Of a stretch of DNA of 64,000 nucleotides, positions 8,200 through 37,795 are shown one piece after another. The translations under genes and the position numbers were made by a program. Source of the stretch: Escherichia phage IME178; sequence record NC_104190.1. One strand, given 5' to 3'. The notes under the pieces were generated by a model. The model was given only the letters and a program-made list of their open reading frames with translations, searched no databases and was not told where the DNA came from. Position 1 is the first letter of the stretch. Every line of letters begins with the position of its first letter.

Positions 8200-8577
8200 T
8201 TATCTCCAGTGGTTAGTATGCTTCTCAGCTTCCTCATCGTTAGGCTCAAAGACAACATGGCAGTCAACTGCTTCCCAAAAAGCCTCACGGATTAAAGAGT
8301 TTTTAGCTGAAATGTCTAATTCTCCCCACTCTTCTAAAGTCTCTAGGTCTGTATCAACTTCGGTATCACAGCCAACCAGCCCCAAAGAAACAACAATAGT
8401 AACGCGATCTTCACGTTGTTCGGGATAAACATCAGCATATTCCCAAGCAGCTTCTTCAACATAATATTGTTGTTCCTTTTCTGGAAGTGACTTATACTTT
8501 TCTTCTGTAATACCCATCTCAACAGCACGAGTACCACAAACTACATTGTTATTAATAATTAGATATGCATAGTTCAT
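8200..8577 (-). CDS. hypothetical acidic protein
   Basis: Start moved to ATG 8577 with AGGAG RBS. Confidence 0.45.
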   Translation of the reverse strand: MNYAYLIINNNVVCGTRAVEMGITEEKYKSLPEKEQQYYVEEAAWEYADVYPEQREDRVTIVVSLGLVGCDTEVDTDLETLEEWGELDISAKNSLIREAFWEAVDCHVVFEPNDEEAEKHTNHWR

Positions 8578-19504: not shown

Positions 19505-19580
19505 TGGAGCGGCTAGAGGGAATCGAACCCTACTCAGCGAGGCTTGGAAGGCCTGCGACACAACCCGTGTGCTTAACCGC
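19505..19580 (-). tRNA. tRNA-Gly (anticodon UCC), tentative
   Basis: Hand-folded: acceptor GCGGTTA/TAGCCGC, loop CTTCCAA, encoded CCA. Confidence 0.55.
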
Positions 19581-19588
19581 TTATTATT

Positions 19589-20054: not shown

Positions 20055-20420
20055 AATTGAAAACTCGCAGGGTTAGCGAAACCTTCCTCAATTAGCATGT
20101 TCTAGAATACTAATCAAGTTATCTCCTATTGCGCGCAGCTCAAGACGAGTACGAATTTTCAATTGTGGCGGCTCTCAGAAACTCTTCTACTCTAGTCTTA
20201 GCAGCTTACTCCCGAACGCATGTCGGGGAAGTCTTACCAAGAGCATCAAATAGCACCGTTACACTTTGAGCCATAGATGTATCAAGAAGCAGAAGGACTT
20301 GAACCTTCACGAGATAGACCATTTATCTCAGCCGCTTTATGAGGTATGTTGCAGGGAGTGGATGTTCCCTATAAACCTTTTAGGCAGCCCCGTCTACCGA
20401 TTCCGGCATACTTCAAGATT

Positions 20421-20515
20421 TGGAGGTAGGTAAGGGGATCGAACCCTTACACCGTATCACTACGATCAACCGATTTCAAGTCGGAGTCCAGCGCCAGCCA
20501 TTGGATTGACCTACC
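20421..20515 (-). tRNA. tRNA-Ser (anticodon UGA), type II
   Basis: Acceptor GGTAGGT/ACCTACC, loop CTTGAAA, long variable arm, encoded CCA. Confidence 0.65.
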
Positions 20516-20654: not shown

Positions 20655-20730
20655 ACGCCCCGCTGGGATTCGAACCCATTAAAACAGCTCAACCGAGATA
20701 GTAGGTTTAATTTACTCTGACCATCAAATT
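20655..20730 (-). other. tRNA-like element, possible pseudo-tRNA
   Basis: Perfect T-arm-like GGGTTCGAATCCC but no acceptor stem could be paired by hand. Confidence 0.3.
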
Positions 20731-20891: not shown

Positions 20892-21150
20892 AAATTCTTT
20901 AGTTTACTAAGGCTATTAGCTCGGCGTAACTACAGCACCTTCGCTTAGAGCGGAAGGAACTACGTCATCTCGCAAACCCAATACACTATTCAGTTGCCGC
21001 TGAATCTAGTGGACCAATCTAGAACTTCTCCCGAATCGTAGGGATCGTGCTTTTTGGCAGCCAGTCCTAGGTCGAGCTAATACCTTAGTGAACTATGATG
21101 AGGATTTCTCCTCATCAATTTATATAAATATTATAACAAGAAATTAAGCA

Positions 21151-22041: not shown

Positions 22042-22200
22042 TTATTTCTTCAACCACAACAAAGATAAGCCAAGCATACTAAAGCCACTAACTAATCCGA
22101 TACATTTTTCTTCTATAGTAAAAGTATCTAGATTAAATGCTGTTATAGCTATTGGCATACACCATAATGCCATAAAAACTTGAGCTATCTTGTGTTTCAT
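22042..22200 (-). CDS. small hydrophobic protein (52 aa)
   Basis: ATG with AGAAGGAAAG RBS and conserved promoter/leader at 22205-22270. Confidence 0.35.
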   Translation of the reverse strand: MKHKIAQVFMALWCMPIAITAFNLDTFTIEEKCIGLVSGFSMLGLSLLWLKK

Positions 22201-22653
22201 TTTGCTTTCCTTCTCTTCACTTTATAAAATATATTATACAGATAATTAAGAGAAATAGCAAATGAATTTTTAATAAATTTACTTATTGTGTAGGCCACCT
22301 GGAGGCTACCAACCCCACGGCTGACAAAGAAGTTTGCGAGACCTCTCTTAAATGCCAGAATAGACCCGCCGATCTATCGGAACCTACATAATAAGTAAAC
22401 TTTATAGTGTCATTCTAGACAGGACTCGAACCTATTATCACTTGTGCGGACTTACGAGAACCATTCTTTCACTCGAATCGAACGAGCTTCTGCCCTAGCC
22501 AAGCTGGTTTCCCCATCAACCACGCTAGAATGTTTGATTGTTTTCAGTGCAAGAGTCCGAGTCTTGGACACGACCGCTTTGCAAGTACATAGGCAGCTTA
22601 TCATGAGTCAGCACTTCCGAATTGCTAGCTCCGTGTTCTGCACTGAAATTTTA

Positions 22654-23001
22654 TTAGTTTAACCTTAAAGTATTATCTACTTCACCATTAATTGTTCGGC
22701 ATTCCTCTGGAATTGCTGGAGTAGCCTTGTATTCCCACCACTCAGCTCCATCATATTCCCCACGTTCTAGCCAGGTTCCATCGGCAAACCATACATTACC
22801 ATAAAGTAGTTGTCCACCATAACCAGAATCATACTCAAAGTCTAGGTTATTAAGAAAATCCCCAATATCTTCTTCTGTATACCCCAGAGGTAATACCCAA
22901 ACTTTTTTGTCCCCATAATACCCGAATTCTATTTTAATACACTTAACTTCAGAATTAGTATTTTTTAAGGCAAGTAACAACTCTTCTTTAGCATTACGCA
23001 T
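22654..23001 (-). CDS. hypothetical protein (115 aa)
   Basis: ORF between tRNA blocks. Confidence 0.45.
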   Translation of the reverse strand: MRNAKEELLLALKNTNSEVKCIKIEFGYYGDKKVWVLPLGYTEEDIGDFLNNLDFEYDSGYGGQLLYGNVWFADGTWLERGEYDGAEWWEYKATPAIPEECRTINGEVDNTLRLN

Positions 23002-23553: not shown

Positions 23554-23655
23554 GCTTGTTTCCTCAGTTATTAATGAAAATGGTATCTGTGGCTGAATTC
23601 GATATCAGCAATGATAGCTGGTTGGCTACCGGTTTACTTAACTCTACACAGAATT

Positions 23656-26619: not shown

Positions 26620-26697
26620 TGGTGGCTCCCCGAGGATTCGAACCTACGTACCTTCCGGTTATGAGCCGGGTGCTCATACCATATGAGCTTGAGAACC
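26620..26697 (-). tRNA. tRNA with CAU anticodon (Met, fMet or Ile2)
   Basis: D-stem GCTC/GAGC, anticodon arm CCGG-CTCATAA-CCGG, CCA; T-stem weak. Confidence 0.5.
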
Positions 26698-28485: not shown

Positions 28486-28984
28486 TTTAAGTATTTTTAA
28501 GAACTCTCGTAAAAACTCTTAAAAATACAGACGATACCGGGAGAGTCATAAGTCTCACTCATTAAGTATTTCAAGACAAAATACAGTAACGTCTATTATT
28601 TTCCAGTTTAAGTCAGGGTGACTTAGTGGTTATGTCCTGCGGTATATTGAGGACTCGGTTAGGCTTGGGGTCATGACTTCCCGCCTTTTGCTGCTACTCA
28701 ACAGGAGTTATCGCGAATTACCTGTGCTATTGTGCACCATTAGTGGCATCTCTCATGCCAGCATTTCCCACTTTATGGATAGCTTGAAAAACTACTCCGA
28801 TATGGAGGAAAAACTTCACTATCTAGAATACCTTCTAAAGTTCTTCTTTAGCCTGGACATAGTTAAATCGTAATAAAACTATTCAGCAGACTGGTTGGTT
28901 AGTCTGGAACCAACTACCGCGTGGTTTAGGCAGTGCGCAACTAACCTCGGAAGCTTTTACGTTAAAAGCATCAGTTATCCAGTT

Positions 28985-29066
28985 CTTACCGACCGTAGGA
29001 TTCGAACCTACATCTTCCACCAGTTACGGCTTGATAATACCAATTATACTAGGACGGCAGTGTTAC
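28985..29066 (-). other. tRNA-like element, possible pseudo-tRNA
   Basis: T-arm GTAGG-TTCGAAT-CCTAC and D-arm-like AGTATAATTGG, but no anticodon stem found and no CCA. Confidence 0.3.
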
Positions 29067-29104
29067 TACATAAGTGATTTCCACACCCCACTATTTATAA
29101 ATTA

Positions 29105-29165
29105 GAGAGTAATTTCTATCTAATTTATGAATATATTATACAGAATTTATAAGCATTTAGCAAAT
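29105..29165 (-). promoter_or_regulatory. T5-type sigma70 promoter upstream of the tRNA cluster
   Basis: Minus-strand TTGCTA, 17 bp, TATAAT (29135-29140), conserved leader. Confidence 0.5.
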
Positions 29166-29171
29166 GAATTT

Positions 29172-29606
29172 TTAGAAAAATTCGCTAGCAATCAAAGCAG
29201 TTGTTTTACCATCATAACGCCCTGGAAACTCTGCCTTAATGGTTTTCATTAAGAGAGCTTTGGTGATACCGGGGTTTAGCTTAACCAGTTCTGCAAAATA
29301 CTTACGAATTTCAGTTTCAGTCAGTTGACTTGGCTGATACTCTTGCAGCATGGAATAAAGCAGTTGCTCATAGTCTACATCAGCAGGAACTTTCGTACCA
29401 ACTTTAATAGTGCGCTGTTTTGCATTTTCTAAAGCCTTAATCTGAGCTTTCAGATAGGCTACGAACTCGGTTCGAGTAATAATGTCTTTATCAATACGTT
29501 GCAAATCACCAATCATGGTCTGAAGATTAAGCGCCCGCTCTTTATCACCGTGAGTACGTGCTAGACTAAGCAGTCCACGAAGGGTCATTAGGATATTTTC
29601 ACCCAT
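29172..29606 (-). CDS. hypothetical protein (144 aa)
   Basis: ORF; ATG overlaps the stop of the upstream small ORF. Confidence 0.5.
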   Translation of the reverse strand: MGENILMTLRGLLSLARTHGDKERALNLQTMIGDLQRIDKDIITRTEFVAYLKAQIKALENAKQRTIKVGTKVPADVDYEQLLYSMLQEYQPSQLTETEIRKYFAELVKLNPGITKALLMKTIKAEFPGRYDGKTTALIASEFF

Positions 29607-29776
29607 TATTTCATCCCCAATGCTTGGTTAAAAGATTGCTCTGTCATAACTGCTGAGACTTTGGCGAAATCAAACTTTTTAGGGTTCGTAGTGATTTCAG
29701 CAACGTTAGAAGTTTTAACAGTTTTCGTAGTACGAATACCGCGAGTGTTAACACCAATAATTACAACTGATTTCAT
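29606..29776 (-). CDS. small hypothetical protein (56 aa)
   Basis: ATG 29776 with GAGAGGAAG RBS in the conserved leader; stop overlaps next gene's ATG. Confidence 0.4.
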   Translation of the reverse strand: MKSVVIIGVNTRGIRTTKTVKTSNVAEITTNPKKFDFAKVSAVMTEQSFNQALGMK

Positions 29777-29844
29777 ATTTCGCTTCCTCTCATTAATTTA
29801 TGGAAGTATTATACGGAAATTTAAGTATTTAAGCAAGTAAATTT

Positions 29845-30312
29845 TTAAGTTTTAGTGACAACAGGTTTATAAAACGTATGTCCCTTAATCTTAGTTGTTT
29901 TCTTAAATTTCTTTGTCCAGTAAGGTTTATCTTTACCACTATGGAAGTATAGTGCTCCATGTGTAGGATCTTGTGGTAAATCAACGTAGTATATCACTCT
30001 AGCTAAATTCTTAGCGGTTTGCCAAGCCTCATCAGTTTTATCAACTTTTGGTCTCTTAGATACCCAAGAGAACTGGTTAGACTGATATACTACTTTACAG
30101 TAGGAATCTGGGAATTTACCGGAGTTTACACGGTTTTTAGTAACATGTGCAATCGCCGTCATCCCCTTTATGCCCTCACCACGACTTTCGAAATAGATAT
30201 TTTTAGCAATGCAATCTATTTCTTTTGCATCGTGCGATGCCTGACTACTAAAGCTGAAGGTAAGGGCAGCTACTAAAAGCAAAGCTGCCTTCATTCTTTT
30301 TACTCCTGCCAA
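29845..30312 (-). CDS. secreted cell-wall hydrolase (SleB-like)
   Basis: Signal peptide MKAALLLVAALTFSFSSQA; body resembles SleB/hydrolase-2 family by memory. Confidence 0.55.
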   Translation of the reverse strand: MAGVKRMKAALLLVAALTFSFSSQASHDAKEIDCIAKNIYFESRGEGIKGMTAIAHVTKNRVNSGKFPDSYCKVVYQSNQFSWVSKRPKVDKTDEAWQTAKNLARVIYYVDLPQDPTHGALYFHSGKDKPYWTKKFKKTTKIKGHTFYKPVVTKT

Positions 30313-30617
30313 TCATATTCAACACGATTGGGGTTTTCTTTATACCCTAAGTCAAGCAAATCATTACGCATAGTTTGCTTAGCTACTGGGTTCGAGGTTA
30401 CTAGTACCACTTTCTTTGGTCTCTGCCCAAATTCTAAGAGTAAACGAAGAATTTGATAACCTTCCATACCATCTACAGCCAAGTCATTATCCATATAAAC
30501 GAAATGGCCTGTGGTATCAGTTTTATTCAGAAACTCTATAGCGGCTTCTGGGGTTCGAATGATAATGTCCATTCCGTGAAGATTACGCACATCATCAATC
30601 AAAATATGAAAAGTCAT
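30300..30617 (-). CDS. stand-alone receiver-like (CheY/REC-like) domain protein
   Basis: Alternating beta/alpha pattern with DD (LIDDV), D (YMDNDL) and T (VVLVTS) at REC positions. Confidence 0.45.
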   Translation of the reverse strand: MTFHILIDDVRNLHGMDIIIRTPEAAIEFLNKTDTTGHFVYMDNDLAVDGMEGYQILRLLLEFGQRPKKVVLVTSNPVAKQTMRNDLLDLGYKENPNRVEYDWQE

Positions 30618-31059
30618 AATAGCCTCGTTTCATCAATTTAAAAATATATTATACAGATAACTTAGTAAATTAGCAAATACATTTTTAAATTGTGAAACTA
30701 GTAAACCGATAAACAGCCTAGAGGCGCCACAGGCCATATCTTATGAGCCATGTACCTTTAATCTAGGGTTTGAATCATCAACGAATACTTTGCATCTTTT
30801 AGCTTTAGAAGTTTAGAAGTTTGAGTTCTTTAAACTTTTCAGCTTTCATACTTAAATGTTGATCTTTGAAGTTGTGTCGGTAATATCAACGACGCTTTGT
30901 TCTTACGTGTCAGCTTAAAAGGCTGGTGTAATAAACATAATCTCCAATAGATTATACTTTATAGTATGGTCAGCGGTCCTATTTAACCTCGTATTTCAAC
31001 CGCTGCTGCGAGGTAAGATGCTTGGGCTTTCGTCTACCGATTTACTAGCTTTTAAATTA

Positions 31060-31413
31060 TTACTCTACTTCAATGAAGGTAGAGGCGTTAGACTCGGACA
31101 GAACAAAGTCAACATTTGTTGCAAAGTCCTGATATTCCTCGTCATGCTGCTTAATCAGCTTTTCCAGTTCCAGCGGATCAATCAAGAATGGAGTATTCTT
31201 GAGTTCCAGCAGGTTGAGCTGCATTTTAACTTCATCTTCGGAAGTTTTTCTTATCGCGGGTAGCCATGCTATCCTGCAAACGCTCATATTTAGCATCAAA
31301 CTGTGCTTTCTGCGTATTAAACTTAACCGTGGCGGCATGGAACTGCTTACGCATGTTAGCCAGCAGTTGGGCTTTAAGTTCCATAGAACGCTTAGCTTCA
31401 ATTGCTTCCGCAA
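31060..31413 (-). CDS. hypothetical protein, probable C-terminal fragment
   Basis: Overlaps the upstream ORF by 182 nt in another frame; frames meet at an A5 run. Confidence 0.4.
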   Translation of the reverse strand: MRKQLKLSVLWNLKPNCWLTCVSSSMPPRLSLIRRKHSLMLNMSVCRIAWLPAIRKTSEDEVKMQLNLLELKNTPFLIDPLELEKLIKQHDEEYQDFATNVDFVLSESNASTFIEVE

Positions 31414-31699
31414 CAGTCATCTTACGAGAGCCAATCTCAACGATTGTTTCCGCATTGCTTTTAATCAGAGCAGCTTTGATACGATCACGCTGGGACATCA
31501 TATCCAGCAGAGACTGGAAATCAGTCTTAATACGAGTAGACAGATCAGCTACTTCGATTGCAGCGCCAACTACAACCTGGTTTTTATCCTTACCTTCACC
31601 AACAGCGATCAGAAGCTGCTGTTCAGTAGCTTTACGGATTTTAGCTTCCAGAGATTTGATAGTTGCCAGAGCGCGAGTTTTAGAAATACGAGTAGTCAT
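31232..31699 (-). CDS. hypothetical coiled-coil protein (155 aa)
   Basis: ORF with charged helical composition. Confidence 0.5.
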   Translation of the reverse strand: MTTRISKTRALATIKSLEAKIRKATEQQLLIAVGEGKDKNQVVVGAAIEVADLSTRIKTDFQSLLDMMSQRDRIKAALIKSNAETIVEIGSRKMTVAEAIEAKRSMELKAQLLANMRKQFHAATVKFNTQKAQFDAKYERLQDSMATRDKKNFRR

Positions 31700-31752
31700 T
31701 ATTTGCTTCCTTATATGAAGTTTGAGATTTGAATTTGTTTAAAGTTGGCCTA

Positions 31753-31935
31753 TTACAGACCAATTGCCAGCAGAGTGCGCAGAACAGTATCATTACTGTT
31801 ATCAATTTTAGGATTAGCACGATTTAGCAGATCAAAGATTTTCTGGATACCTGATTGACGTTCAGCCATACAACGGATACCCAGATTACGAGTAGCTTTC
31901 TTACCATTTTTACGAACATTTTTAGATACTGGCAT
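31753..31935 (-). CDS. small basic protein (60 aa)
   Basis: Lys/Arg-rich ORF. Confidence 0.4.
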   Translation of the reverse strand: MPVSKNVRKNGKKATRNLGIRCMAERQSGIQKIFDLLNRANPKIDNSNDTVLRTLLAIGL

Positions 31936-32005
31936 ATATGTTTTCCTTTTATTGTTTTCTCAAATTTATGAATATATTATACAGAATTTTGGGGCCGGAA
32001 GCAAA

Positions 32006-32707
32006 TCAAATTTTCATTTTTTCGATCATAGCTGCAACACAATAGCTTTCAACTAAGGCATCAAATGCAGGGTCATGCTTAGCTGGATAGATCCCATAAC
32101 GAATAGTGTCCATCTTCTCCATTTTAGCTATTGCCCAGCTAATACCTTCGGTCTCTAGAGCTTTATAACTGTACCCAGCTTGCATCCAGAGATTACGAAG
32201 AGATCGAACATTACCCAAATTCCAGAATTTCCACGGAACTACCTCTTCATTAGTTCCAGCATGGAACGTGTTTGCAGAGTAGATAGTCATATCAAACTCT
32301 GGACCATTGCCATAATACAAAGCATTTTCGCCTAGAGCCAACTCCATAATATTTTGAGCCATAGAGAAGGCAGCATAGTTTGAGCCAAATTTATTAGTGC
32401 AATTATGTTTACCATTTTGGAAGGCAATCAGTTTTGGATTACGTTCTTTCATGGCTTCCATAATGTGGATAGCAGACGGGCTATTTTTAGCTTGATCCAT
32501 CCAGAATGCTAGAGTAGATGCTGTAACTTTGGCACCAGAATTAAGCTGATCCTGCACATCCAAAGTAGCAAATACTAAGTCAGGGTCTTTATCAATCCCA
32601 TGCATAGCCACAAAAGCGAAAGAAGGCATTACGATATGAGTAGTACCACAATCTCCTGGAGTTCCTAGAGATTCAATATCTAGCATACCAAATGGTTTTA
32701 CTTTCAT
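32006..32707 (-). CDS. DEDD-type 3-prime to 5-prime exonuclease (DexA-like)
   Basis: N-terminal MLDIESLG (Exo I-like DxE) and C-terminal H/D motifs, like T4 DexA. Confidence 0.55.
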   Translation of the reverse strand: MKVKPFGMLDIESLGTPGDCGTTHIVMPSFAFVAMHGIDKDPDLVFATLDVQDQLNSGAKVTASTLAFWMDQAKNSPSAIHIMEAMKERNPKLIAFQNGKHNCTNKFGSNYAAFSMAQNIMELALGENALYYGNGPEFDMTIYSANTFHAGTNEEVVPWKFWNLGNVRSLRNLWMQAGYSYKALETEGISWAIAKMEKMDTIRYGIYPAKHDPAFDALVESYCVAAMIEKMKI

Positions 32708-32735
32708 AACTTATCCTTTATTGTGTAGAAAACTA

Positions 32736-32972
32736 TTAAAGAGCTGTCTCTTTAATAGACTCCCACTTCTTGGGGTCTTTAAAACCAGGAAGCATATCCT
32801 CACTGACATCCCAGTTCTCTTCCATAGAGAAGTCGGGCCAGTCATTCCAGCTACCTTCCAGCTCTTCATAACAGGTATCCATTACTTCATGACTAGAAAG
32901 TCGTGTATAATCCCTAGCGGACTTATGGGTGCTAGCACGGTTAAAATCATTCTTTGCTACAAAATTACGCAT
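32736..32972 (-). CDS. hypothetical acidic protein (78 aa)
   Basis: ORF in array. Confidence 0.4.
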   Translation of the reverse strand: MRNFVAKNDFNRASTHKSARDYTRLSSHEVMDTCYEELEGSWNDWPDFSMEENWDVSEDMLPGFKDPKKWESIKETAL

Positions 32973-32984
32973 AGTTTCTCCAAA

Positions 32985-33006
32985 TAAGAGGGGCTTTCGC
33001 CCCTAT
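32985..33006 (-). terminator. rho-independent terminator
   Basis: Hairpin GAGGGGC-TTTC-GCCCCT flanked by a T-run on the minus strand. Confidence 0.55.
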
Positions 33007-33013
33007 TTATCTA

Positions 33014-33529
33014 TTACTTCGCTTTACGCTTGCGAGCTGGTTTAGCAGATTTACGAGCGGAATCACCCGTGAACTTAATGCCTACACCATAACACAGAGC
33101 ACGAACATTATCTTTACTATACTCTACACCAAAGATATTTGGCTTAACAGAACCAAACTGTCCACGAGTATCACGCAATACATCTGCTGTTGGTTTACGC
33201 TTCTGGTTAACTGCCTTCTCATAGTCTTTCATAGACATACCATTACGAGAGAACAATTCAGCCCCAGCATTGAAGCTCAGGGAAACTGGGACAGATTTAT
33301 GGCCGTAATTTTCTACATACATAACCATTTTGTAGGATTTACGGGTGGCATTTTTAGCTTTAGGCTTCTTACGAATCGGAGCCGGATTATTCAGTGCTTG
33401 CGCAGCCTGAGCATCGGTAGGATGCTTACGCAGGTGACGTTCCAGACGAGCTTTGCGATTAGCCTCGGTCTGCGGGAAAGTTTTAACTGCCGGAGCTGCT
33501 TGAGTTTTTGCGTTTTTCTGCTTAGCCAT
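33014..33529 (-). CDS. basic hypothetical protein (171 aa)
   Basis: Lys/Ala-rich termini; promoter motif upstream. Confidence 0.5.
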   Translation of the reverse strand: MAKQKNAKTQAAPAVKTFPQTEANRKARLERHLRKHPTDAQAAQALNNPAPIRKKPKAKNATRKSYKMVMYVENYGHKSVPVSLSFNAGAELFSRNGMSMKDYEKAVNQKRKPTADVLRDTRGQFGSVKPNIFGVEYSKDNVRALCYGVGIKFTGDSARKSAKPARKRKAK

Positions 33530-33544
33530 TATTTATTTTCCTTT

Positions 33545-33605
33545 TTGTTTATCAATTTATGAAATATATTATACGAGAATTTGAAACGTTTAGCAAATGA
33601 ATTTT
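33545..33605 (-). promoter_or_regulatory. T5-type sigma70 promoter
   Basis: Conserved TTGCT -35 / TATAAT -10 / leader motif family. Confidence 0.5.
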
Positions 33606-33612
33606 TTAAAAA

Positions 33613-33891
33613 TTATCTACCAACCATCTTAGCTTGTTCAGCATCTGAGACATATTGATACGCTCCTTTATTATACGCCGGAGCAGTACACATTTTCTTA
33701 CGCTCAATCTCTTCTTGAGCTTTTCTTTCGCGTTCAGCTAATTCTTCGTCCAGATAAACTAAACGTTGTTCTGGAGGGGGTGGAAGACGTGTTTCTGGCT
33801 CACCAATATTAGCCTTTCTTATTTGACGAGGTGATTGTGCACGTTTTCTCAATGGTTTAAATCCTAGTGAATTTGAGTTATAAATTCGCAT
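33613..33891 (-). CDS. hypothetical protein (92 aa)
   Basis: ORF in array. Confidence 0.45.
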   Translation of the reverse strand: MRIYNSNSLGFKPLRKRAQSPRQIRKANIGEPETRLPPPPEQRLVYLDEELAERERKAQEEIERKKMCTAPAYNKGAYQYVSDAEQAKMVGR

Positions 33892-33967
33892 AAAGCCCTC
33901 CTCACTTTCAATACGAATATTATACTAAATTAGAGGGCTTTAAGCAAGAAAATTTTTAATTTATTTA

Positions 33968-34444
33968 TCACATCTCAGCCATTTCAGCTTCAGTAATAAC
34001 TGTATTACATAAGGCATCTACAGCTTCATTACCACTGATACCAGAATGTCCTTTAACCTTAATAAAGGTAGGGTTAGTATTATGAAAGTTGATATACTGC
34101 TGTGTTAATTTAAATGCTTCCTGCCAAAGTTCTAGATTAAGAGGGACTTCACCATCTGCTTTCTTCCAACCTTTCCTTTGCCAAGAAAACATCCAACTTT
34201 CCATACCATTTTTGCAATAAGCAGAGTCAGTATATATAGCAATTGGTCTATTATCTTTTTTAACAGACCAACGTAGGGCTTCTACGATAGCTGTGAGTTC
34301 CATCTCATTATTTGTAGTTTTAGGATTATAACCAGATTTAGAACCTAAACGATCGTCGTTATCATCATAGACAATAAAACCCCAAGCACCTGGACCTGGA
34401 TTAGACTTACAAGCACCATCTGTGTAAATGTGGAAAACCGACAT
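33968..34444 (-). CDS. rnhA: ribonuclease H
   Basis: RNase HI motifs: TDGAC, NNEMEL and KVKGHSG...NEAVD. Confidence 0.85.
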   Translation of the reverse strand: MSVFHIYTDGACKSNPGPGAWGFIVYDDNDDRLGSKSGYNPKTTNNEMELTAIVEALRWSVKKDNRPIAIYTDSAYCKNGMESWMFSWQRKGWKKADGEVPLNLELWQEAFKLTQQYINFHNTNPTFIKVKGHSGISGNEAVDALCNTVITEAEMAEM

Positions 34445-34707
34445 TATTTTTCACCTTCTGTTACAACTCTAGTTTTTGGCGGAATTGGAGGCATTGGTGG
34501 AACTCTTGGGTACTTTCTTTGTGGACCATTTGATGCTAAAGACGGCTCAGGAGGCTTAGGTTTTATAGCCTCTAATTCCCTATCCAAGAATTCCTCTATT
34601 GCTCTATCTACAAAGTAGTCATAAGGTAAATGATAGTATTCTGATAGAGTAAGAAGTTTGTGTTCTTGCCTTTCTGTTAAATAAATTTTCTTTCTAAAGA
34701 GTCCCAT
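34444..34707 (-). CDS. hypothetical Pro-rich protein (87 aa)
   Basis: ORF; stop overlaps rnh start. Confidence 0.4.
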   Translation of the reverse strand: MGLFRKKIYLTERQEHKLLTLSEYYHLPYDYFVDRAIEEFLDRELEAIKPKPPEPSLASNGPQRKYPRVPPMPPIPPKTRVVTEGEK

Positions 34708-34802
34708 ATGTGTACCTCCAATTTATAAAATATATTATATTTAAATTTCACTAAATAAGCAAATGAAATTTAAATATAATAGCCCCGAAGGGGCTATTTG
34801 AG

Positions 34803-35156
34803 CTAAATTATAATTAAGATTATGAGAGCATAGGTTAAGTAATGGAGTAACTGATCAAATCCTAAAGCTATCCAAAACCTGGAATCACTTATATCGTATT
34901 TACAACATTGTGCTTTCCAGTAATCTATGATAAAGTGTAGGATTAATTCCATTATAACTAAAGTTATAGCCATTCCTAGTGATGTGAACATAGTAAGGAT
35001 TATAAAGGTTAATCCAGCATGTACTAGAGAATGAGTTAGTAATGGAAGTTTCCATCCTATTTTGTGAGTCTTCCTTAACATGTATGGGGTTTGGAGGGGA
35101 TAATCAGCCATAAAATGTTTTAGGAAGAATATAACAAATAATAATATTGTAAACAT
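34803..35156 (-). CDS. membrane protein (117 aa)
   Basis: Multiple transmembrane segments. Confidence 0.5.
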   Translation of the reverse strand: MFTILLFVIFFLKHFMADYPLQTPYMLRKTHKIGWKLPLLTHSLVHAGLTFIILTMFTSLGMAITLVIMELILHFIIDYWKAQCCKYDISDSRFWIALGFDQLLHYLTYALIILIII

Positions 35157-35159
35157 ATA

Positions 35160-36014
35160 TTATACCGTAAAGGGGTATGCAATAGCGGGGTGATGTTCGT
35201 AACCACGAACAGTAAAATCATCCTTACTTACCCAGATCAATACATCCTCTAGAGTTCGGATATTTGGGTTGATTTCTAGAGTAGGAGGTGCAAAAGGTTC
35301 ACGATCGAATTGCTTATGCTCCATCAAAACATTATACTGATCCTCATAGATATGAAGATTGATAATCTTCTGGCGTGCAATTCCTGGTTTAAGGCCTGTA
35401 ATCTGTGCCATTAATGCTAGAAGCGTATAGCACTGAACCATGTTAAATACTTGGCCTAGCAGGAAGTCATTAGATCTCTGGAAAGAGTTCAGGTATAATG
35501 TATCTCCCAAAATAGAGAACTGATGAGTGTGCATACATGGACGTAAGCAACCCTTTGAGAACTCCCCCGGATTCCAGAACGTTAGAATTTCCCCACGATC
35601 ATCAATGCCCTTCTTCAGGTTATGGTAAATCTTGGCTAGCTGGTCAAACATAAGACCATCGGAATTAGTCCACTGACGTCCTTGAACACCATAGACTCGT
35701 CCCATATCATCCTCACCTTTACGGTATGGATTGTCTAGCCAAGCTAAGTTTTCATTTGCATTAGCATTCCATGTGTTAACACCAATAGCGCGGAATTGTG
35801 CTGCTGAATCATACCCACGTAGATACCCAATCATTTCCATTATTGCTTGTTTTGCAAACGCCTTACGGGTAGTAATAAGTGGAAATTCACCTGCACCTAC
35901 GTTAAAAGTAAAATCTGCGTCAATAATGGTGAGGCAACGAACCCCTGTTCTAGGATTCGTTACCCACTGACCTTCTGATAGAATACGTTTTCCAACTTCG
36001 ATATACTGATTCAT
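35160..36014 (-). CDS. thyA: thymidylate synthase
   Basis: ThyA-like sequence throughout; sits beside DHFR and RNR genes. Confidence 0.85.
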
Positions 36015-36547
36015 TAATAAGTAACCAATTCCTGTACAAATCGCAGGCTGTTATCACTGTTTGCGCCAGTTGCGTAAACTAAACGAGTAGATTCATAATT
36101 GTAATCTAGAATCGTATTATCCAGATGTACATCTGCCTCTAGTTTTTGATTACTAAAGATTGTGGATACGAAAGCACTTTCAATATGTCCATGAATATAC
36201 ATTTCATACAGTAATGTTGCGCCACCTAAAACCACTGTCTGTTGATCTTTTAAGAATGTAGGCAATGTATCCCCAATCTTAGAAATTGGGGTGTAAATAT
36301 CATGCGTAATATCGTCTGGCAGTGGACGATCAGCACGAATAAATAGGTCAGAAGCTCCAATCATACGTTCCCTAACGGCGTATGGAAGAGCTAAATAAGT
36401 ACCAGCACCAATGATGATGTTATCCGGATTCAACATGTCCAGTTGAGAATAGAAAGCATCTAGTTCTTCTTTGAAGGAACCCCATGGAAGTTTACCGTGG
36501 AGGCCGAACTCCCCATTCGGCCCAACTGCATACATTGCTGTAATCAT
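36014..36547 (-). CDS. frd: dihydrofolate reductase
   Basis: DHFR N-terminal motif [11 protein letters not shown]...LPW; size and position between thyA and nrdB. Confidence 0.8.
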
Positions 36548-37689
36548 AAGAAATCTCCAAATTCATTACCCAGATCTTTCAGAGTATCAGTAGAGGTTTC
36601 GGTGACTTGACCTACACGATATGCTGCACCAATCTGGATTTCTTGTGGAGCAGGCTGTAAAGAAGTGGTATCCAACCAGTTCATGATCCACGGAATAGGG
36701 TTTTTGGTGATTACTGGTAAATGACTAGGCCATTCTACACCAATGTGCATAAATGCATTACGCCCCACAAAGTACAGATATTCTTCTAGAAGTTCTGCAT
36801 TCAAGCCAATCAGACTACGACCTTTGAAAATGAAATGACCCCATTCAATTTCAGTTTTCAAAGTTTTCAGGAGCTGTGCTGGTGCTTTAGCCACTGCTTC
36901 ATCTACCAGATCTTTGTCAAATTGCTGAAACATAATCTGGATGATTGCTTTGGACATCTGAGTGTGCAGAGCTTCATCTTTAGCGATTAATTGCAGATTT
37001 TTAGCAATACCTTGCAGAATATCGTTCTCTGCTAATGCAAAGGTACATGCAAAGGATGCGTAAAACTGCATTGCTTCCAGACCATAGATCGCAAAGTAAG
37101 CGTCTAATAGTTTAGCCTGAGTTTCACGTTTAACTTCAGGGAACTCAGTTTCTGGGTATGTATTGTCGCCACGATGATCGCGTACTGCGATGAAATACTG
37201 ACCTAACTGGTACAGTTCATCGAATAGTTCAACAGAATCAGCGATACGTGCGAATGCTTCTTGGTTTTTGGTTACAGAATCAATAAATTCTGCTGGATCA
37301 GTCAGCACATTACGAATAATATTGCTATAAGCACGACTATGTAGGTCTTCAAAATAGCTCCACTGTTTGAGCATACCTTCCAATTCTGGACGACTTACAA
37401 GCGGCATAATAGCCGCTTCAGGGGCACGACTGATAAAGGAATCAGTTTGAGTTTGCCATGCTAAGTTCAGGAGTGTAATTTCCTGAATTTCTCGTGGGAG
37501 ATTAGGCCATTGTTTCTTATCTGCTTCCAGACTGATTTCAGTTTCAGTCCAAAATTGAGAGCGTTGCAGAAGTGCCAGACGTTCTAGTTCTGGGTGTGCT
37601 ACACGTACGTAATCTGCGATACCGAGAGAATCTCCCAGGAAAAGGTCAGCGTTAGTATGATCCCAATTCAGGTTTAGTAAAGTAGTCAT
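36544..37689 (-). CDS. nrdB: ribonucleotide reductase class Ia small subunit
   Basis: Ferritin-like di-iron radical subunit pattern; adjacent to nrdA. Confidence 0.85.
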   Translation of the reverse strand: MTTLLNLNWDHTNADLFLGDSLGIADYVRVAHPELERLALLQRSQFWTETEISLEADKKQWPNLPREIQEITLLNLAWQTQTDSFISRAPEAAIMPLVSRPELEGMLKQWSYFEDLHSRAYSNIIRNVLTDPAEFIDSVTKNQEAFARIADSVELFDELYQLGQYFIAVRDHRGDNTYPETEFPEVKRETQAKLLDAYFAIYGLEAMQFYASFACTFALAENDILQGIAKNLQLIAKDEALHTQMSKAIIQIMFQQFDKDLVDEAVAKAPAQLLKTLKTEIEWGHFIFKGRSLIGLNAELLEEYLYFVGRNAFMHIGVEWPSHLPVITKNPIPWIMNWLDTTSLQPAPQEIQIGAAYRVGQVTETSTDTLKDLGNEFGDFL

Positions 37690-37764
37690 TGATTTTCCTC
37701 TTTCTCACTATTTCAGGAATATTATAGCAAATCTGGTAGCGATTAGCAAGTAAAATTTCAAAGA

Positions 37765-37795
37765 AAAAGGAGACCCGAAGATCTCCTTGTTTTTA
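37765..37795 (-). terminator. intergenic hairpin terminator (T-runs on both sides)
   Basis: Hairpin AAGGAGA/TCTCCTT between nrdA and nrdB. Confidence 0.45.

What the first reader, a model, noticed from the sequence alone, without database searches (positions are those of the whole stretch)
22290..22650. Second non-coding block with tRNA-like fragments
About 360 bp between a small ORF and the next gene contain T-loop-like motifs (CAGGACTCGAACC, CGAATCGAACGAGC) without complete cloverleaves, and the plus-strand ORF here is antisense to the whole cluster. Suggests pseudo-tRNAs or a composite non-coding RNA.
Basis: seen in the sequence. Interest (0 to 1): 0.4.

Follow-up and report, generated by a model that had tools for sequence, protein, structure and literature searches.

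The report
T5-type stable tRNA-like RNA block
This 360-base stretch of a T5-like phage is not tRNA debris but three back-to-back structured small-RNA genes: two are already annotated in phage T5 as stable RNAs of unknown function, and one of those is a tRNA whose anticodon loop is replaced by a conserved 55-base folded domain, a design that recurs in phage tRNA clusters from many environments.

Summary
The window is a T5-like phage, 100% identical here to Salmonella phage PK7. The flagged gap on the minus strand is syntenic with the T5 interval annotated as RNA2 ("tRNA-like stable RNA, unknown function") and RNAIV ("stable RNA, unknown function"). Upstream lies a 105-nt stem-closed element that no record annotates (EL1).

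tRNA software finds no tRNA here. The RNAs are nevertheless not decayed.
- **RNA2** has a complete tRNA frame, but the anticodon loop is replaced by a 55-nt structured insert. The frame and insert hairpin are supported by covariation: 92.6% of cells paired in 40 distinct sequences, against 54% shuffled and 37-43% slid.
- A model of RNA2 finds about 30 divergent relatives in metagenomes and two in MAG contigs. Nearly all with flanking sequence lie on the same strand inside tRNA clusters. Rfam has no family for it.
- **RNAIV** is a covariation-supported four-way junction limited to T5-like phages.
- **EL1** is about 15-fold less variable than neighbouring third codon positions.

Function is unknown. 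My best guess, with low confidence, is that these RNAs are matured by the tRNA-processing enzymes and that RNA2 is a non-decoding tRNA mimic. The locus is already known; the family breadth and architecture appear undescribed.

The parts
22544..22648 (-). EL1: an unannotated 105-nt element closed by a 10-11 bp stem (UUUCAGUGCA...UGCACUGAAA) with three internal hairpins predicted. It starts 5 nt after the stop codon of the T5.067 homologue.
   Evidence: Not annotated in T5 or BF23. MFE fold (z = -1.7, which is not decisive). 218 phage records carry it, all at >=95% identity. Nucleotide diversity is 0.010, against 0.150 at third codon positions of the adjacent ORF. No covariation is available, so the fold itself is unproven.
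22408..22532 (-). RNA2 orthologue (125 nt). It has a tRNA frame: acceptor 22525-22531 / 22412-22418, D-arm 22505-22522, anticodon-type stem 22500-22504 / 22440-22444, and T-arm 22419-22435. The anticodon loop is replaced by the insert listed next.
   Evidence: 95% identical and syntenic to T5 misc_RNA rna2. Covariation. Model R1 aligns genuine tRNAs end to end, with the insert collapsed to a ~7-nt loop.
22445..22499 (-). The 55-nt insert of RNA2. Proposed layout: helix Pa (GGGC / GUCC), helix Px (the AGAA / UUCU register in this copy), an inner hairpin 22471-22487 capped by the T-loop UUCGAUU, a GAAAGAAUGG bulge with an invariant GG, and the near-invariant string CGUAAGUCCGCA.
   Evidence: Parsed family table. 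Pa and Px tests. The MFE fold recovers Pa and Px. The inner hairpin is helix 4.
22390..22407 (-). AU-rich spacer. Its 3' 13 nt (AAGUUUACUUAUU, 22390-22402) form the 5' arm of a long duplex that encloses RNAIV.
   Evidence: Fold. The arm is conserved ahead of RNAIV in SuperGirl and, in variant form, My1, even where tRNA-Gly and other genes separate it from RNA2; the Stitch row of A8 starts inside the arm and shows only its last 4 nt, the rest being read from the raw L003 sequence.
22287..22389 (-). RNAIV orthologue (103 nt), a four-way junction. Parts: a 10-bp terminal stem, an 8-bp hairpin with a GGCG loop, a long arm with an invariant 7-nt loop CUCGCAA, and a short hairpin with a UUGGUAG loop.
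   Evidence: 98% identical to T5 misc_RNA rnaIV. Covariation: 93.2% paired, 16 of 34 pairs changed on both sides, slid controls 39-51%. Model R2 scores it at 121 bits and finds nothing outside T5-like phages.
22274..22286 (-). The 3' arm (AAUAAGUAAAUUU) of the long duplex that encloses RNAIV.
   Evidence: RNAIV plus both arms folds at -48.7 kcal/mol, z = -4.53, with 0 of 200 shuffles as good.
22233..22261 (-). Promoter P13a (TTGCTA, 17 nt, TATAAT). It starts the next transcription unit and marks the 3' limit of the RNA block.
   Evidence: Consensus scan gives 10 of 12 matches. Annotated as P13a in T5 and BF23.

Best explanation
**What it is (shown).** The block encodes three consecutive structured non-coding RNAs on the minus strand. 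They lie at the 3' end of a tRNA-containing transcription unit and just upstream of promoter P13a. Two are the orthologues of phage T5 RNA2 and RNAIV, which GenBank annotates as stable RNAs. The third, EL1, is unannotated.

**How they are made (inferred).** They are co-transcribed with the neighbouring tRNAs and ORFs. RNA2 would be cut out by the enzymes that mature tRNAs: RNase P at its 5' end, then 3' trimming and CCA addition. Some relatives encode the CCA. RNAIV would be released by cleavage of the roughly 23-bp duplex formed by its terminal stem and its complementary flanks, which looks like an RNase III-type substrate.

**RNA2 architecture (shown).** RNA2 is a tRNA-derived RNA that cannot decode. 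It keeps the acceptor stem, D-arm, anticodon-type stem, variable loop and T-arm. A 55-nt rod replaces the 7-nt anticodon loop.

**RNA2 tip (inferred).** The rod ends in a second T-loop, and an invariant GG sits beside it. This resembles a second tRNA 'elbow'.

**Function (guess).** RNA2 acts in trans as a stable tRNA mimic. It would present this conserved domain to a factor that normally handles tRNAs and is shared by many bacteria. One candidate is a tRNA-targeting defence nuclease, which fits the known counter-defence role of other T5 tRNA-region genes. I put that specific function at about 0.3.
For: **Identity**
- 100% match to Salmonella phage PK7 and 97% to T5.
- T5 and BF23 annotate rna2, rnaIV and P13a at the syntenic positions.

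**RNA2 frame**
- 12 lineages: 93.4% paired, 19 of 27 pairs changed on both sides, 0 of 500 shuffles as good, slid controls 33-42%.
- 40 distinct sequences: 92.6% paired against 54% shuffled and 37-43% slid, with 422 double-sided cells.
- Model R1 scores RNA2 at 144.8 bits. It then aligns real tRNAs full length at 14-29 bits, with the 53-nt insert replaced by their ~7-nt loop.
- Rfam's own tRNA model calls relatives L117 (50.6 bits) and L094 (47.9 bits) as tRNA with a 51- or 56-nt insertion at the anticodon loop.

**Insert structure**
- Px: 80% paired against 58% shuffled, 0 of 2000 shuffles as good.
- Pa fourth pair: C:G in 5 sequences, U:A in 19, U.U in 16. C never occurs with A or U.
- The GG of 'AUGG' and the T-loop UUCRAUU are invariant.

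**Not coding**
- The AUGG-to-CGUAA spacing varies by 2-5 nt.
- Single-nucleotide indels occur between lineages.

**Context**
- Relatives occur in Demerecviridae of six host genera and in Acinetobacter T4-like phages.
- About 30 divergent metagenomic copies and 2 MAG copies were found.
- Of 28 divergent loci scanned, 22 have tRNA genes near the element, always on its strand and often 4-10 nt away. The six without are mostly contigs of about 1-1.4 kb.
- Some copies encode a 3' CCA: Erwinia KEY ACCA, Klebsiella TCCA, UTK0010 GCCA.

**Selection**
- Diversity is 0.010 (EL1), 0.019 (RNA2) and 0.034 (RNAIV), against 0.150 at third codon positions next door.

**RNAIV**.

**Background**
- T5 tRNA-Lys neutralises PARIS, and T5 tRNA-Tyr is reported to counter retron Eco7 (PMC11464382).
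Against: - No experiment or transcript data were available here. Ends, processing enzymes and stability rest on the GenBank annotation and on analogy with tRNA maturation.
- The decoy idea has no direct support. T5Mos lacks 30661-38625, which includes RNA2 and RNAIV, yet it grows on laboratory E. coli. T5 tRNA-Lys alone fully restored infectivity of the separate mutant T5-123, whose deletion (29191-32442) does not include RNA2 (PMC11464382).
- A decoy that only had to be uncleavable would not need such a conserved, elaborate insert.
- No protein gene recurs next to the RNA, so context gives no clue to a partner.
- The Px register is not uniform. T5-type copies pair one position off the others, and Pa has a U.U in 16 of 40 sequences.
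- The window copy of RNA2 has an MFE z-score of only -0.74.
- EL1 has no covariation. Its low diversity could reflect recent spread rather than constraint.
Confidence: 0.7

Rival explanations
1. Cis-acting role only. The three structures would be transcript 'punctuation'. They would provide RNase P, RNase III or RNase E entry sites and protective 3' structures that separate and stabilise the upstream mRNA (the T5.067 homologue) and the tRNAs. The excised RNAs would be by-products with no trans function.
For: - The block sits at the 3' end of a mixed ORF and tRNA unit, immediately before promoter P13a.
- EL1 begins 5 nt after a stop codon.
- RNAIV is enclosed by a ~23-bp duplex with z = -4.53.
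- T5Mos, which lacks the region, is viable (PMC11464382).
Against: - Punctuation needs only a tRNA-like shape. It does not explain a 55-nt insert whose sequence (CGUAAnUCCGCA, the AUGG motif, the UUCGAUU loop) is nearly invariant across phage families, hosts and environments.
- In other phages RNA2-type genes sit between tRNAs, not next to mRNAs.
- T5 annotation calls the RNAs stable species.
Confidence: 0.2
2. RNA2 is a functional tRNA gene interrupted by a small intron. The intron would be removed to give a normal decoding tRNA.
For: - The frame is fully tRNA-like, and the insertion is exactly at the anticodon loop.
- Bacterial and phage tRNA and protein genes are known to carry introns (general knowledge).
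Against: - No anticodon-loop remnant is present. The 3-4 nt after the 5' stem strand vary (GCUA, CCGA, ACGA, AUA and others) without U33. The 3' side is always GCA.
- The insert is far smaller than group I introns and matches no ribozyme or intron family in Rfam at E<=10.
- Its bulge-helix-bulge order is the mirror image of the archaeal splicing motif (my reading of the structure).
- T5 annotates the 125-nt unspliced form as the stable RNA.
- The frame shows no consistent isotype.
Confidence: 0.06
3. RNA2 is a miniature tmRNA-like or otherwise aminoacylated RNA that acts on the ribosome.
For: - It combines a tRNA-like acceptor and T-arm with an extra domain in place of the anticodon arm, and some copies encode CCA.
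- The Acinetobacter copies lack a D-stem, as tmRNA does.
- The string CUCGUAAnUCCGCA loosely resembles E. coli tmRNA CCUCGUAAAAAGCCGCA (recalled from memory, not tested).
Against: - ARAGORN finds no tmRNA here, and Rfam gives no tmRNA match.
- There is no G3:U70 pair.
- Pair 1:72 is mostly A:U or U:A and varies freely.
- No reading frame is conserved, because spacing changes by non-multiples of three and in-frame stops occur.
- One phage contig carries both a real tmRNA and an RNA2-type gene (L086).
- The extended arm would clash with the decoding centre (inference).
Confidence: 0.06
4. The block is decayed tRNA genes (pseudo-tRNAs) or chance T-loop-like strings. Alternatively, it encodes the 72-aa + strand ORF.
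For: - tRNA software does not call anything here.
- Some GenBank records place 'hypothetical protein' features over the region.
Against: - Compensatory changes occur in every helix of RNA2 and RNAIV.
- Diversity is 4- to 15-fold below neighbouring third codon positions.
- The motif count is far above chance.
- The ORFs have no PHROG match, while the flanking genes do.
- The + strand ORF spans EL1, which is absent from Epseptimavirus loci that still keep RNA2.
Confidence: 0.02

Closest known systems
Phage T5 / BF23 RNA2 and RNAIV (GenBank AY543070, AJ604530 misc_RNA rna2, rnaIV)
   Same: They are orthologues. RNA2 is 95% and RNAIV 98% identical to T5. Order is the same: T5.067 homologue, gap, RNA2, RNAIV, promoter P13a, T5.066 homologue. 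All are on the same strand.
   Different: Nothing material differs. BF23 and Epseptimavirus phages have tRNA-Gly(GCC), and in some cases other genes, inserted between RNA2 and RNAIV. The annotation gives no structure, family or function, and it leaves EL1 unannotated.
Phage T4 species 1 and species 2 RNAs (rnaC, rnaD)
   Same: They are stable small RNAs of unknown function encoded inside a phage tRNA cluster on the tRNA strand. rnaC ends in a T-arm plus acceptor-like 3' end.
   Different: They are not homologous. Model R1 gives rnaC only 15.5 bits, which is the level of ordinary tRNAs, and the insert motifs are absent. RNA2-type genes do occur in other T4-like phages (Acinetobacter 133 and Acj9).
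Canonical tRNA (Rfam RF00005)
   Same: RNA2 shares the acceptor stem, D-arm with GG, 5-bp anticodon-type stem, 4-5 nt variable loop, T-arm with UUCGAGU, tRNA-array context and occasional encoded CCA.
   Different: It has no 7-nt anticodon loop, no U33 and no anticodon. A 50-56-nt structured insert takes their place. The window copy is not detected by ARAGORN or by RF00005 even at E<=10.
tmRNA (SsrA)
   Same: Both combine a tRNA-like acceptor and T-arm module with a large non-tRNA domain where the anticodon arm would be.
   Different: RNA2 has no G3:U70, no tag reading frame, no detected pseudoknots, and about one third of the length. It is not recognised by ARAGORN or Rfam.
Bacterial Y RNA-like YrlA (Rfam RF02553)
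   Same: Both are non-decoding RNAs that mimic tRNA D- and T-arms. YrlA-type RNAs also occur in phages (general knowledge).
   Different: The topology is opposite. In YrlA the 5' and 3' ends form the protein-binding stem and the acceptor-like stem is closed by a loop (general knowledge). Only a 23.8-bit partial hit was seen in one relative, against a gathering score of 69. No rsr-like gene is nearby.

Membership tests
T5 RNA2 orthologue group | Sequence identity and synteny with T5 misc_RNA rna2 (between the T5.067 homologue and RNAIV / P13a, on the tRNA strand) | tested here: met
   125 of 125 nt aligned at 95% identity. The flanking ORFs match the T5.067 and T5.066 positions.
T5 RNAIV orthologue group | Sequence identity and synteny with T5 misc_RNA rnaIV, immediately upstream of promoter P13a | tested here: met
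   103 of 103 nt at 98% identity. The promoter TTGCTA-17-TATAAT lies at 22261-22233.
T5 RNA2 / RNAIV | Accumulates as a discrete stable RNA in infected cells | not testable with these tools
   This rests only on the wording of the GenBank annotation ('stable RNA'). The primary papers are not in the searchable library.
Canonical tRNA | Cloverleaf frame: 7-bp acceptor, D-arm, 5-bp anticodon stem and T-arm with T-loop, supported by covariation | tested here: met
   Real tRNAs align full length to the RNA2 model.
Canonical tRNA | 7-nt anticodon loop with U33 and a readable anticodon | tested here: not met
   The loop is replaced by 55 nt. The flanks vary and lack U33.
Canonical tRNA | Recognised by tRNA detectors (ARAGORN; Rfam RF00005 at the gathering score) | tested here: not met
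   No call in 22150-22750 even at E<=10. Two distant relatives do pass RF00005 with a 51- or 56-nt insertion.
Intron-containing tRNA | A recognisable self-splicing intron or splicing motif, and exon ends that restore an anticodon loop | tested here: not met
   No Rfam intron or ribozyme match. No conserved loop remnants. Actual splicing is not testable here.
tmRNA | G3:U70 alanine identity pair, a tag reading frame ending in a stop, and detection by ARAGORN or Rfam | tested here: not met
   Position 3:70 is U:A in the window copy and varies freely across the family. The frame is not conserved. No tmRNA call was made.
T4 rnaC / rnaD | Sequence or structure homology to T4 species 1 or 2 RNA | tested here: not met
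   MAFFT shows no meaningful alignment. R1 gives 15.5 bits for rnaC and nothing for rnaD.
YrlA / Y RNA-like | Rfam RF02553 at the gathering score, and an adjacent rsr gene | tested here: not met
   No hit in the window. One relative scores 23.8 bits against a gathering score of 69. No recurrent neighbouring protein was found.
RNA2-type 'anticodon-loop-replaced' tRNA mimics (family defined here) | tRNA frame plus the insert layout GGGY..G-N-N, hairpin with UUCRAUU loop, ..GG.., N-N-C-GUAA-N-UCC-GCA | tested here: met
   The window copy scores 144.8 bits with R1 and shows every motif. 40 distinct members are aligned in A7.

The most novel reading that the evidence does not exclude
RNA2 is the long-known but unrecognised founder of a widespread phage RNA class that Rfam does not curate. 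The class is a 'double-elbow' tRNA mimic: the anticodon loop is replaced by a conserved rod that ends in a second T-loop / GG module. It would be carried as a regular member of tRNA arrays by unrelated large phages (T5-like, T4-like, and many uncultured ones from soil, water and gut). It would act in trans on a universally conserved tRNA-handling factor of the host, for example by neutralising a tRNA-directed defence nuclease or by hijacking a tRNA-processing or modifying enzyme.
Probability: 0.3. Interest if true: 0.8.

Novelty: already known. Interest (0 to 1): 0.45.

Why it matters
Stable small RNAs of unknown function in the tRNA clusters of T4 and T5 have been an open question for decades. 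Recent work shows that genes in the T5 tRNA region are counter-defence tools: tRNA-Lys acts against PARIS and tRNA-Tyr against retron Eco7.

If RNA2 really belongs to a conserved family present in many unrelated phages, three things follow.
- Its function is probably general rather than a T5 curiosity.
- The alignment and structure model give concrete mutations to test, in the T-loop, the GG, GUAA, and helices Pa and Px.
- Annotation pipelines are missing a recurrent phage gene, or overlaying it with false 'hypothetical proteins' or false tRNA calls.

For the scan itself, the practical result is that this finding is an orthologue of annotated T5 features and not a new locus.

Tried and rejected
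- **Rfam.** Searching the block at E<=10 returned only noise: archaeal sRNA162, the pan motif and sRNA41 at 16 bits.
- **Whole-block folding.** Folding all 371 nt gave no signal on either strand, with z of -0.24 and -0.98. Only the separate elements are informative.
- **Short ORF in the insert.** I considered AUG GUU CUC GUA AGU CCG CAC AAG UGA, or a UAA-terminated tag. I rejected it because of 1-nt indels in the Klebsiella and Acinetobacter copies, variable AUGG-CGUAA spacing, and an in-frame UGA in L179.
- **Archaeal-type splicing motif.** I considered a bulge-helix-bulge motif. The order of bulges relative to the 4-bp helix is the mirror image, so I rejected it (reasoning on the structure, not a tool test).
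- **Homology to T4 rnaC.** A shared UCGAUUCGAG string suggested it. In rnaC that string is the acceptor strand, and the model score is at background.
- **Recurrent neighbouring protein.** I looked within +/-4 kb of 38 family members. No family occurs in more than 3 loci, and several 'families' are spurious ORFs across tRNA genes.
- **Ancestral tRNA isotype of the frame.** Best identities were 0.6-0.75 to assorted isotypes, which is uninformative.
- **Literature.** Searches for primary descriptions of T5 RNA2 or RNAIV found only papers citing the T5 genome and deletion-mutant work. The original reports are not in the library.
Full report
**1. Where the window comes from**

The region 22200-22720 is 100% identical to Salmonella phages PK7 and PK8. 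It is 97-99% identical to many Tequintavirus genomes, including T5.

The window carries the T5-type tRNA cluster on the minus strand.
- ARAGORN finds 22 tRNAs between 17986 and 28485.
- Rfam adds two more, at 26623-26697 and 28987-29058.

**2. Checking the observation**

Both quoted strings are present, at 22420-22432 and 22474-22487 on the + strand. On the minus strand they are T-arm-type hairpins.

The T-loop core GTTCGANTC occurs 18 times in the window. All are on the minus strand within the tRNA cluster, against 1.07 expected by chance.

The interval lies between two ORFs that each match a PHROG family: 22042-22200 and 22654-23001, both on the minus strand. The ORFs inside the interval, 72 aa on + and 50 aa on -, match nothing.

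ARAGORN and Rfam find no tRNA, tmRNA or other family in 22150-22750. This holds at the gathering threshold and at E<=10.

**3. What is annotated at the same place in T5**

In GenBank AY543070 the syntenic gap runs between T5.067 (348 nt, matching the window ORF 22654-23001) and T5.066 (159 nt, matching 22042-22200). It contains three features:
- misc_RNA rna2: "RNA2, tRNA-like stable RNA with unknown functions", 125 nt
- misc_RNA rnaIV: "RNAIV, stable RNA with unknown functions", 103 nt
- promoter P13a

BF23 is annotated the same way, with a tRNA-Gly(GCC) between the two RNAs.

Pairwise alignment and BLAST map these features onto the window:

| Feature | Window coordinates (minus strand) | Identity to T5 |
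|---|---|---|
| RNA2 | 22408-22532 | 95% |
| RNAIV | 22287-22389 | 98% |
| P13a (TTGCTA-17-TATAAT) | 22261-22233 | not computed |

About 120 nt between the T5.067 stop codon and RNA2 are unannotated in both records. In the window this is a stem-closed element at 22544-22648, which I call EL1.

**4. RNA2 is a tRNA frame with the anticodon loop replaced**

I compared the window copy with copies from these phages:
- Epseptimavirus: Stitch, UTK0010
- Erwinia phage KEY
- Serratia phage Slocum
- a Klebsiella T5-like phage
- Pectobacterium phage My1
- the T4-like Acinetobacter phages 133 and Acj9

The comparison shows five helices:
- a 7-bp acceptor stem
- a D-arm with a GG-containing loop
- a 5-bp stem in the position of the anticodon stem, followed by a 4-5 nt variable loop
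- a T-arm (UUCGAGU loop)
- an inner hairpin capped by UUCGAUU

On a plain MAFFT alignment of 12 lineages, this structure scores as follows:
- 93.4% of cells paired
- 19 of 27 pairs changed on both sides
- no shuffle of 500 reached the observed values
- sliding the 3' partners by 1-3 columns dropped pairing to 33-42%

A covariance model of this alignment (R1) scores the window copy at 144.8 bits. It then matches genuine tRNAs of the window and of T4, T5 and other phages over its full length at 14-29 bits. In those matches, 52-53 model positions (the insert) are replaced by the tRNA's 6-7-nt remainder of the anticodon loop.

This shows directly that RNA2 is tRNA-shaped everywhere except at the anticodon loop, where it carries 55 nt (22445-22499).

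Some copies encode a 3' CCA after a discriminator base: KEY ACCA, Klebsiella TCCA, UTK0010 GCCA. The window copy has G-ACA.

**5. RNA2 belongs to a widespread family**

I scanned for the pattern GTTCRATTC-N(12-34)-CGTAANTCCGCA and confirmed hits with R1.
- Metagenome contigs gave 39 hits at 43-147 bits. About 30 are divergent. By R1 score, eight match the T5 group and two the Klebsiella T5-like type.
- Genome or MAG contigs gave 2 hits: a Pseudobdellovibrionaceae MAG contig and an unclassified one.
- For comparison, ordinary tRNAs reach at most about 29 bits with R1.

Rfam's own tRNA model calls two of these relatives as tRNA with a 51- or 56-nt insertion exactly at the anticodon loop: L117 at 50.6 bits and L094 at 47.9 bits.

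ARAGORN was run on 28 of the divergent loci.
- In 22 it finds tRNA genes near the element, always on the same strand and often only 4-10 nt away.
- Several arrays include suppressor tRNAs, and one contig carries a phage tmRNA.
- The six loci with no tRNA call include four contigs of about 1-1.4 kb.

On the 40 distinct sequences, the five helices score as follows. This alignment was fitted to the model, so it leans towards the structure. The independent MAFFT result agrees.
- 92.6% paired, against 54% shuffled and 37-43% slid
- 422 cells changed on both sides
- covariation score 0.892 against 0.200

**6. Anatomy of the insert**

I parsed all members on fixed anchors. The common plan, 5' to 3', is:
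- 3-4 variable nucleotides
- GGGY
- one A or U
- G-N-N
- 0-4 nucleotides
- a 4-6 bp hairpin with loop UUCGAUU (or UUCAAUU)
- about 10-14 nt, usually (U)GAAAG(U/A)AUGG, with an invariant GG
- N-N-C
- GUAA
- N-UCC
- GCA

Two further helices are supported.
- **Px** (G-N-N with N-N-C) is 80% paired against 58% in shuffles, with 0 of 2000 shuffles as good. Pair types include GUA/UAC, GUC/GAC, GUG/CAC, GUU/AAC, GGC/GCC, GGU/ACC, GAG/CUC and GGG/CCC. T5-type copies use a register one position off (AGAA/UUCU).
- **Pa** (GGGY with N-UCC) has a fourth pair that is C:G in 5 sequences, U:A in 19 and U.U in 16. C never occurs with A or U.

The single-sequence MFE fold of the window copy independently proposes Pa and Px.

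The insert is therefore a rod that continues the anticodon-type stem. It has GUAA and GAAAG..GG bulges and is capped by a T-loop. The invariant GG next to a T-loop suggests a D-loop / T-loop-type contact, which would form a second 'elbow'. That last point is inference only.

The insert is not coding.
- The AUGG-to-CGUAA distance varies between 2 and 5 nt.
- Lineages differ by single-nucleotide indels.
- One member has an in-frame UGA.

No anticodon-loop remnant is conserved. The frame has no consistent isotype. Pair 1:72 is mostly A:U or U:A.

**7. RNAIV**

I compared the window type with the Epseptimavirus types (Stitch, SuperGirl) and with My1. The comparison supports a four-way junction:
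- a terminal stem
- an 8-bp hairpin with a GGCG loop (GAUAGAUC/GGUCUAUU, GACACAUC/GGUGUGUU, GUAAACC/GGUUUAC)
- a long arm ending in the invariant 7-nt loop CUCGCAA
- a short hairpin with a UUSRUAG loop

Scores are 93.2% paired, 16 of 34 pairs changed on both sides, 0 of 500 shuffles as good, and 39-51% in slid controls. Most of the double-sided changes come from two divergent sequences, so this support is thinner than for RNA2.

The AU-rich sequences on either side of RNAIV are complementary: 22390-22402 and 22274-22286. With them the structure folds at -48.7 kcal/mol, z = -4.53. The arms are retained in SuperGirl and, in variant form, in My1. For Stitch the 5' arm is read from the raw sequence rather than from alignment A8. 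A duplex of about 23 bp is the kind of substrate RNase III cuts, but this is inference.

A model of RNAIV (R2) finds nothing in other phage tRNA-array loci or among 119 pattern-matched viral contigs. RNAIV is therefore confined to T5-like phages. R2 does not match tRNAs.

**8. EL1**

EL1 is present in 218 phage records, all at >=95% identity, and is never annotated as RNA.

The table gives mean nucleotide diversity among 17 distinct Tequintavirus sequences.

| Region | Diversity |
|---|---|
| EL1 | 0.010 |
| RNA2 | 0.019 |
| RNAIV | 0.034 |
| Second codon positions, adjacent ORF | 0.022 |
| Third codon positions, adjacent ORF | 0.150 |
| P13a region | 0.136 |

The predicted fold is a 10-11 bp closing stem with three hairpins. 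It has an unremarkable z-score (-1.7) and no covariation. The element is clearly constrained or recently spread, but its structure is not established.

**9. How it probably works**

Shown:
- three conserved structured RNA genes on the tRNA strand
- RNA2 cannot decode
- RNA2-type genes behave as ordinary members of phage tRNA arrays

Taken from annotation only:
- the RNAs accumulate as stable species

Inferred:
- co-transcription with upstream genes, since T5 annotates no promoter or terminator between P14b and P13a
- release of RNA2 by RNase P plus 3' trimming and CCA addition
- release of RNAIV via its long duplex

Function is unknown. The tRNA frame evolves freely while keeping its shape. 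The insert sequence is nearly fixed across phages of very different hosts. This pattern argues for a trans-acting RNA whose insert contacts something conserved among bacteria.

T5 tRNA-region genes counter tRNA-directed defences: tRNA-Lys against PARIS, and tRNA-Tyr against retron Eco7 as cited in PMC11464382. My preferred guess is therefore a tRNA mimic that engages a tRNA-handling or tRNA-cleaving factor. I give this only about 0.3.

Points against a necessary role in the laboratory:
- T5Mos lacks 30661-38625, which covers RNA2 and RNAIV, and still grows.
- T5 tRNA-Lys alone restored infectivity of the separate mutant T5-123 on PARIS hosts. The T5-123 deletion does not include RNA2 (PMC11464382).

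The main rival is a purely cis role in transcript processing and stability.

**10. Comparison with known systems, and novelty**

The locus itself is already known, as the T5 and BF23 misc_RNA annotations show.
- It is not a member of the tmRNA, YrlA or T4 rnaC/rnaD families, and it is not a detectable canonical tRNA (see the membership table).
- Rfam 15 has no family for RNA2, RNAIV or EL1.
- I found no paper in the searchable library that describes the RNA2 architecture or its distribution. The older T5 literature is not held there, so I cannot exclude an earlier description of the fold.

Three things appear to be new here:
- the family-level model of RNA2 (frame plus Pa, Px and T-loop rod) and its wide distribution
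- the covariation support for RNAIV and its flanking duplex
- the recognition of EL1 as a constrained element

**11. Verdict**

This is a real feature. The locus is already annotated in T5 and its function is unknown. Interest is moderate, and would be higher if the trans-acting tRNA-mimic reading holds.

Noticed in passing
window 20056-20161, 20166-20272, 20273-20417, 20911-21082, 23581-23653, 28486-29121 (all minus strand): The other T5 'stable RNAs of unknown function' all have orthologues in this window, at 85-99% identity: RNAIII, RNAI, RNA1 (tRNA-like), RNA2H, RNA3 (putative tRNA-like) and RNAX. None is found by ARAGORN. Rfam's only match among them is the tRNA hit inside RNAX noted in the next item. 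They were not analysed further.
   Followed up: partly
window 26623-26697 and 28987-29058 (minus strand): Rfam calls two tRNAs that ARAGORN misses, at 40.3 and 35.5 bits. The second lies inside the RNAX orthologue.
   Followed up: no
window 19508-19581 and 20425-20515 (minus strand); T-loop core also at 20667-20675: There are sub-threshold tRNA-like matches here: the Rfam tRNA-Sec model scores 30.9 and 37.6 bits against a gathering score of 47. T5 has tRNA-Gly(UCC) and tRNA-Ser genes at the corresponding places. These may be divergent or degenerate tRNAs.
   Followed up: partly
L003 (Salmonella phage Stitch) ~812-915; L028 ~8288-8390: In Epseptimavirus, directly after tRNA-Gly(GCC), there is another ~103-nt tRNA-like RNA (GUGGAGA...AGCAGGUUCGACUCCUGU-CUCUCCAC-ACCA). 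It has an acceptor stem, a T-arm and an encoded CCA, but a non-canonical body. ARAGORN does not call it. It is absent from the window.
   Followed up: no
L005 1464-1568 (Acinetobacter phage 133); L074 398-511 (Acj9): RNA2-type genes occur in T4-like Acinetobacter phages. In phage 133 the gene exactly fills the unannotated gap between tRNA-Gly and tRNA-Cys. These copies lack a D-stem. In Acj9 an annotated CDS (Acj9p148) overlies it, which is probably a false gene call.
   Followed up: partly
L077 390-459 (Salmonella phage UTK0010): ARAGORN calls a 'tRNA-Arg(ccg)' that is really the 5' half of the RNA2 homologue. It uses the inner T-loop hairpin as a T-arm. This is an example of how the family produces false tRNA annotations.
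   Followed up: yes
L086 7557-7931 and 11274-11390; L126 and L205: Uncultured phage contigs that carry RNA2-type genes also carry other unusual RNA genes. L086 has a phage-encoded tmRNA (tag ANDTVYALAA). L126 and L205 have suppressor-type tRNAs with anticodons CUA and UUA.
   Followed up: no
L179 4194-4316 (Pseudobdellovibrionaceae MAG contig, 330 kb); L085 (570-kb contig), L088 (310-kb contig): Some RNA2-type genes lie on very long contigs. These could be jumbo phages, prophages or bacterial chromosomes. I did not determine whether any copy is truly chromosomal.
   Followed up: no
window 22654-23001 (minus strand): The T5.067 homologue (phrog_3972, unknown function) has a weak local match of residues 75-102 to an excisionase PHROG (E = 5e-6).
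   Followed up: no
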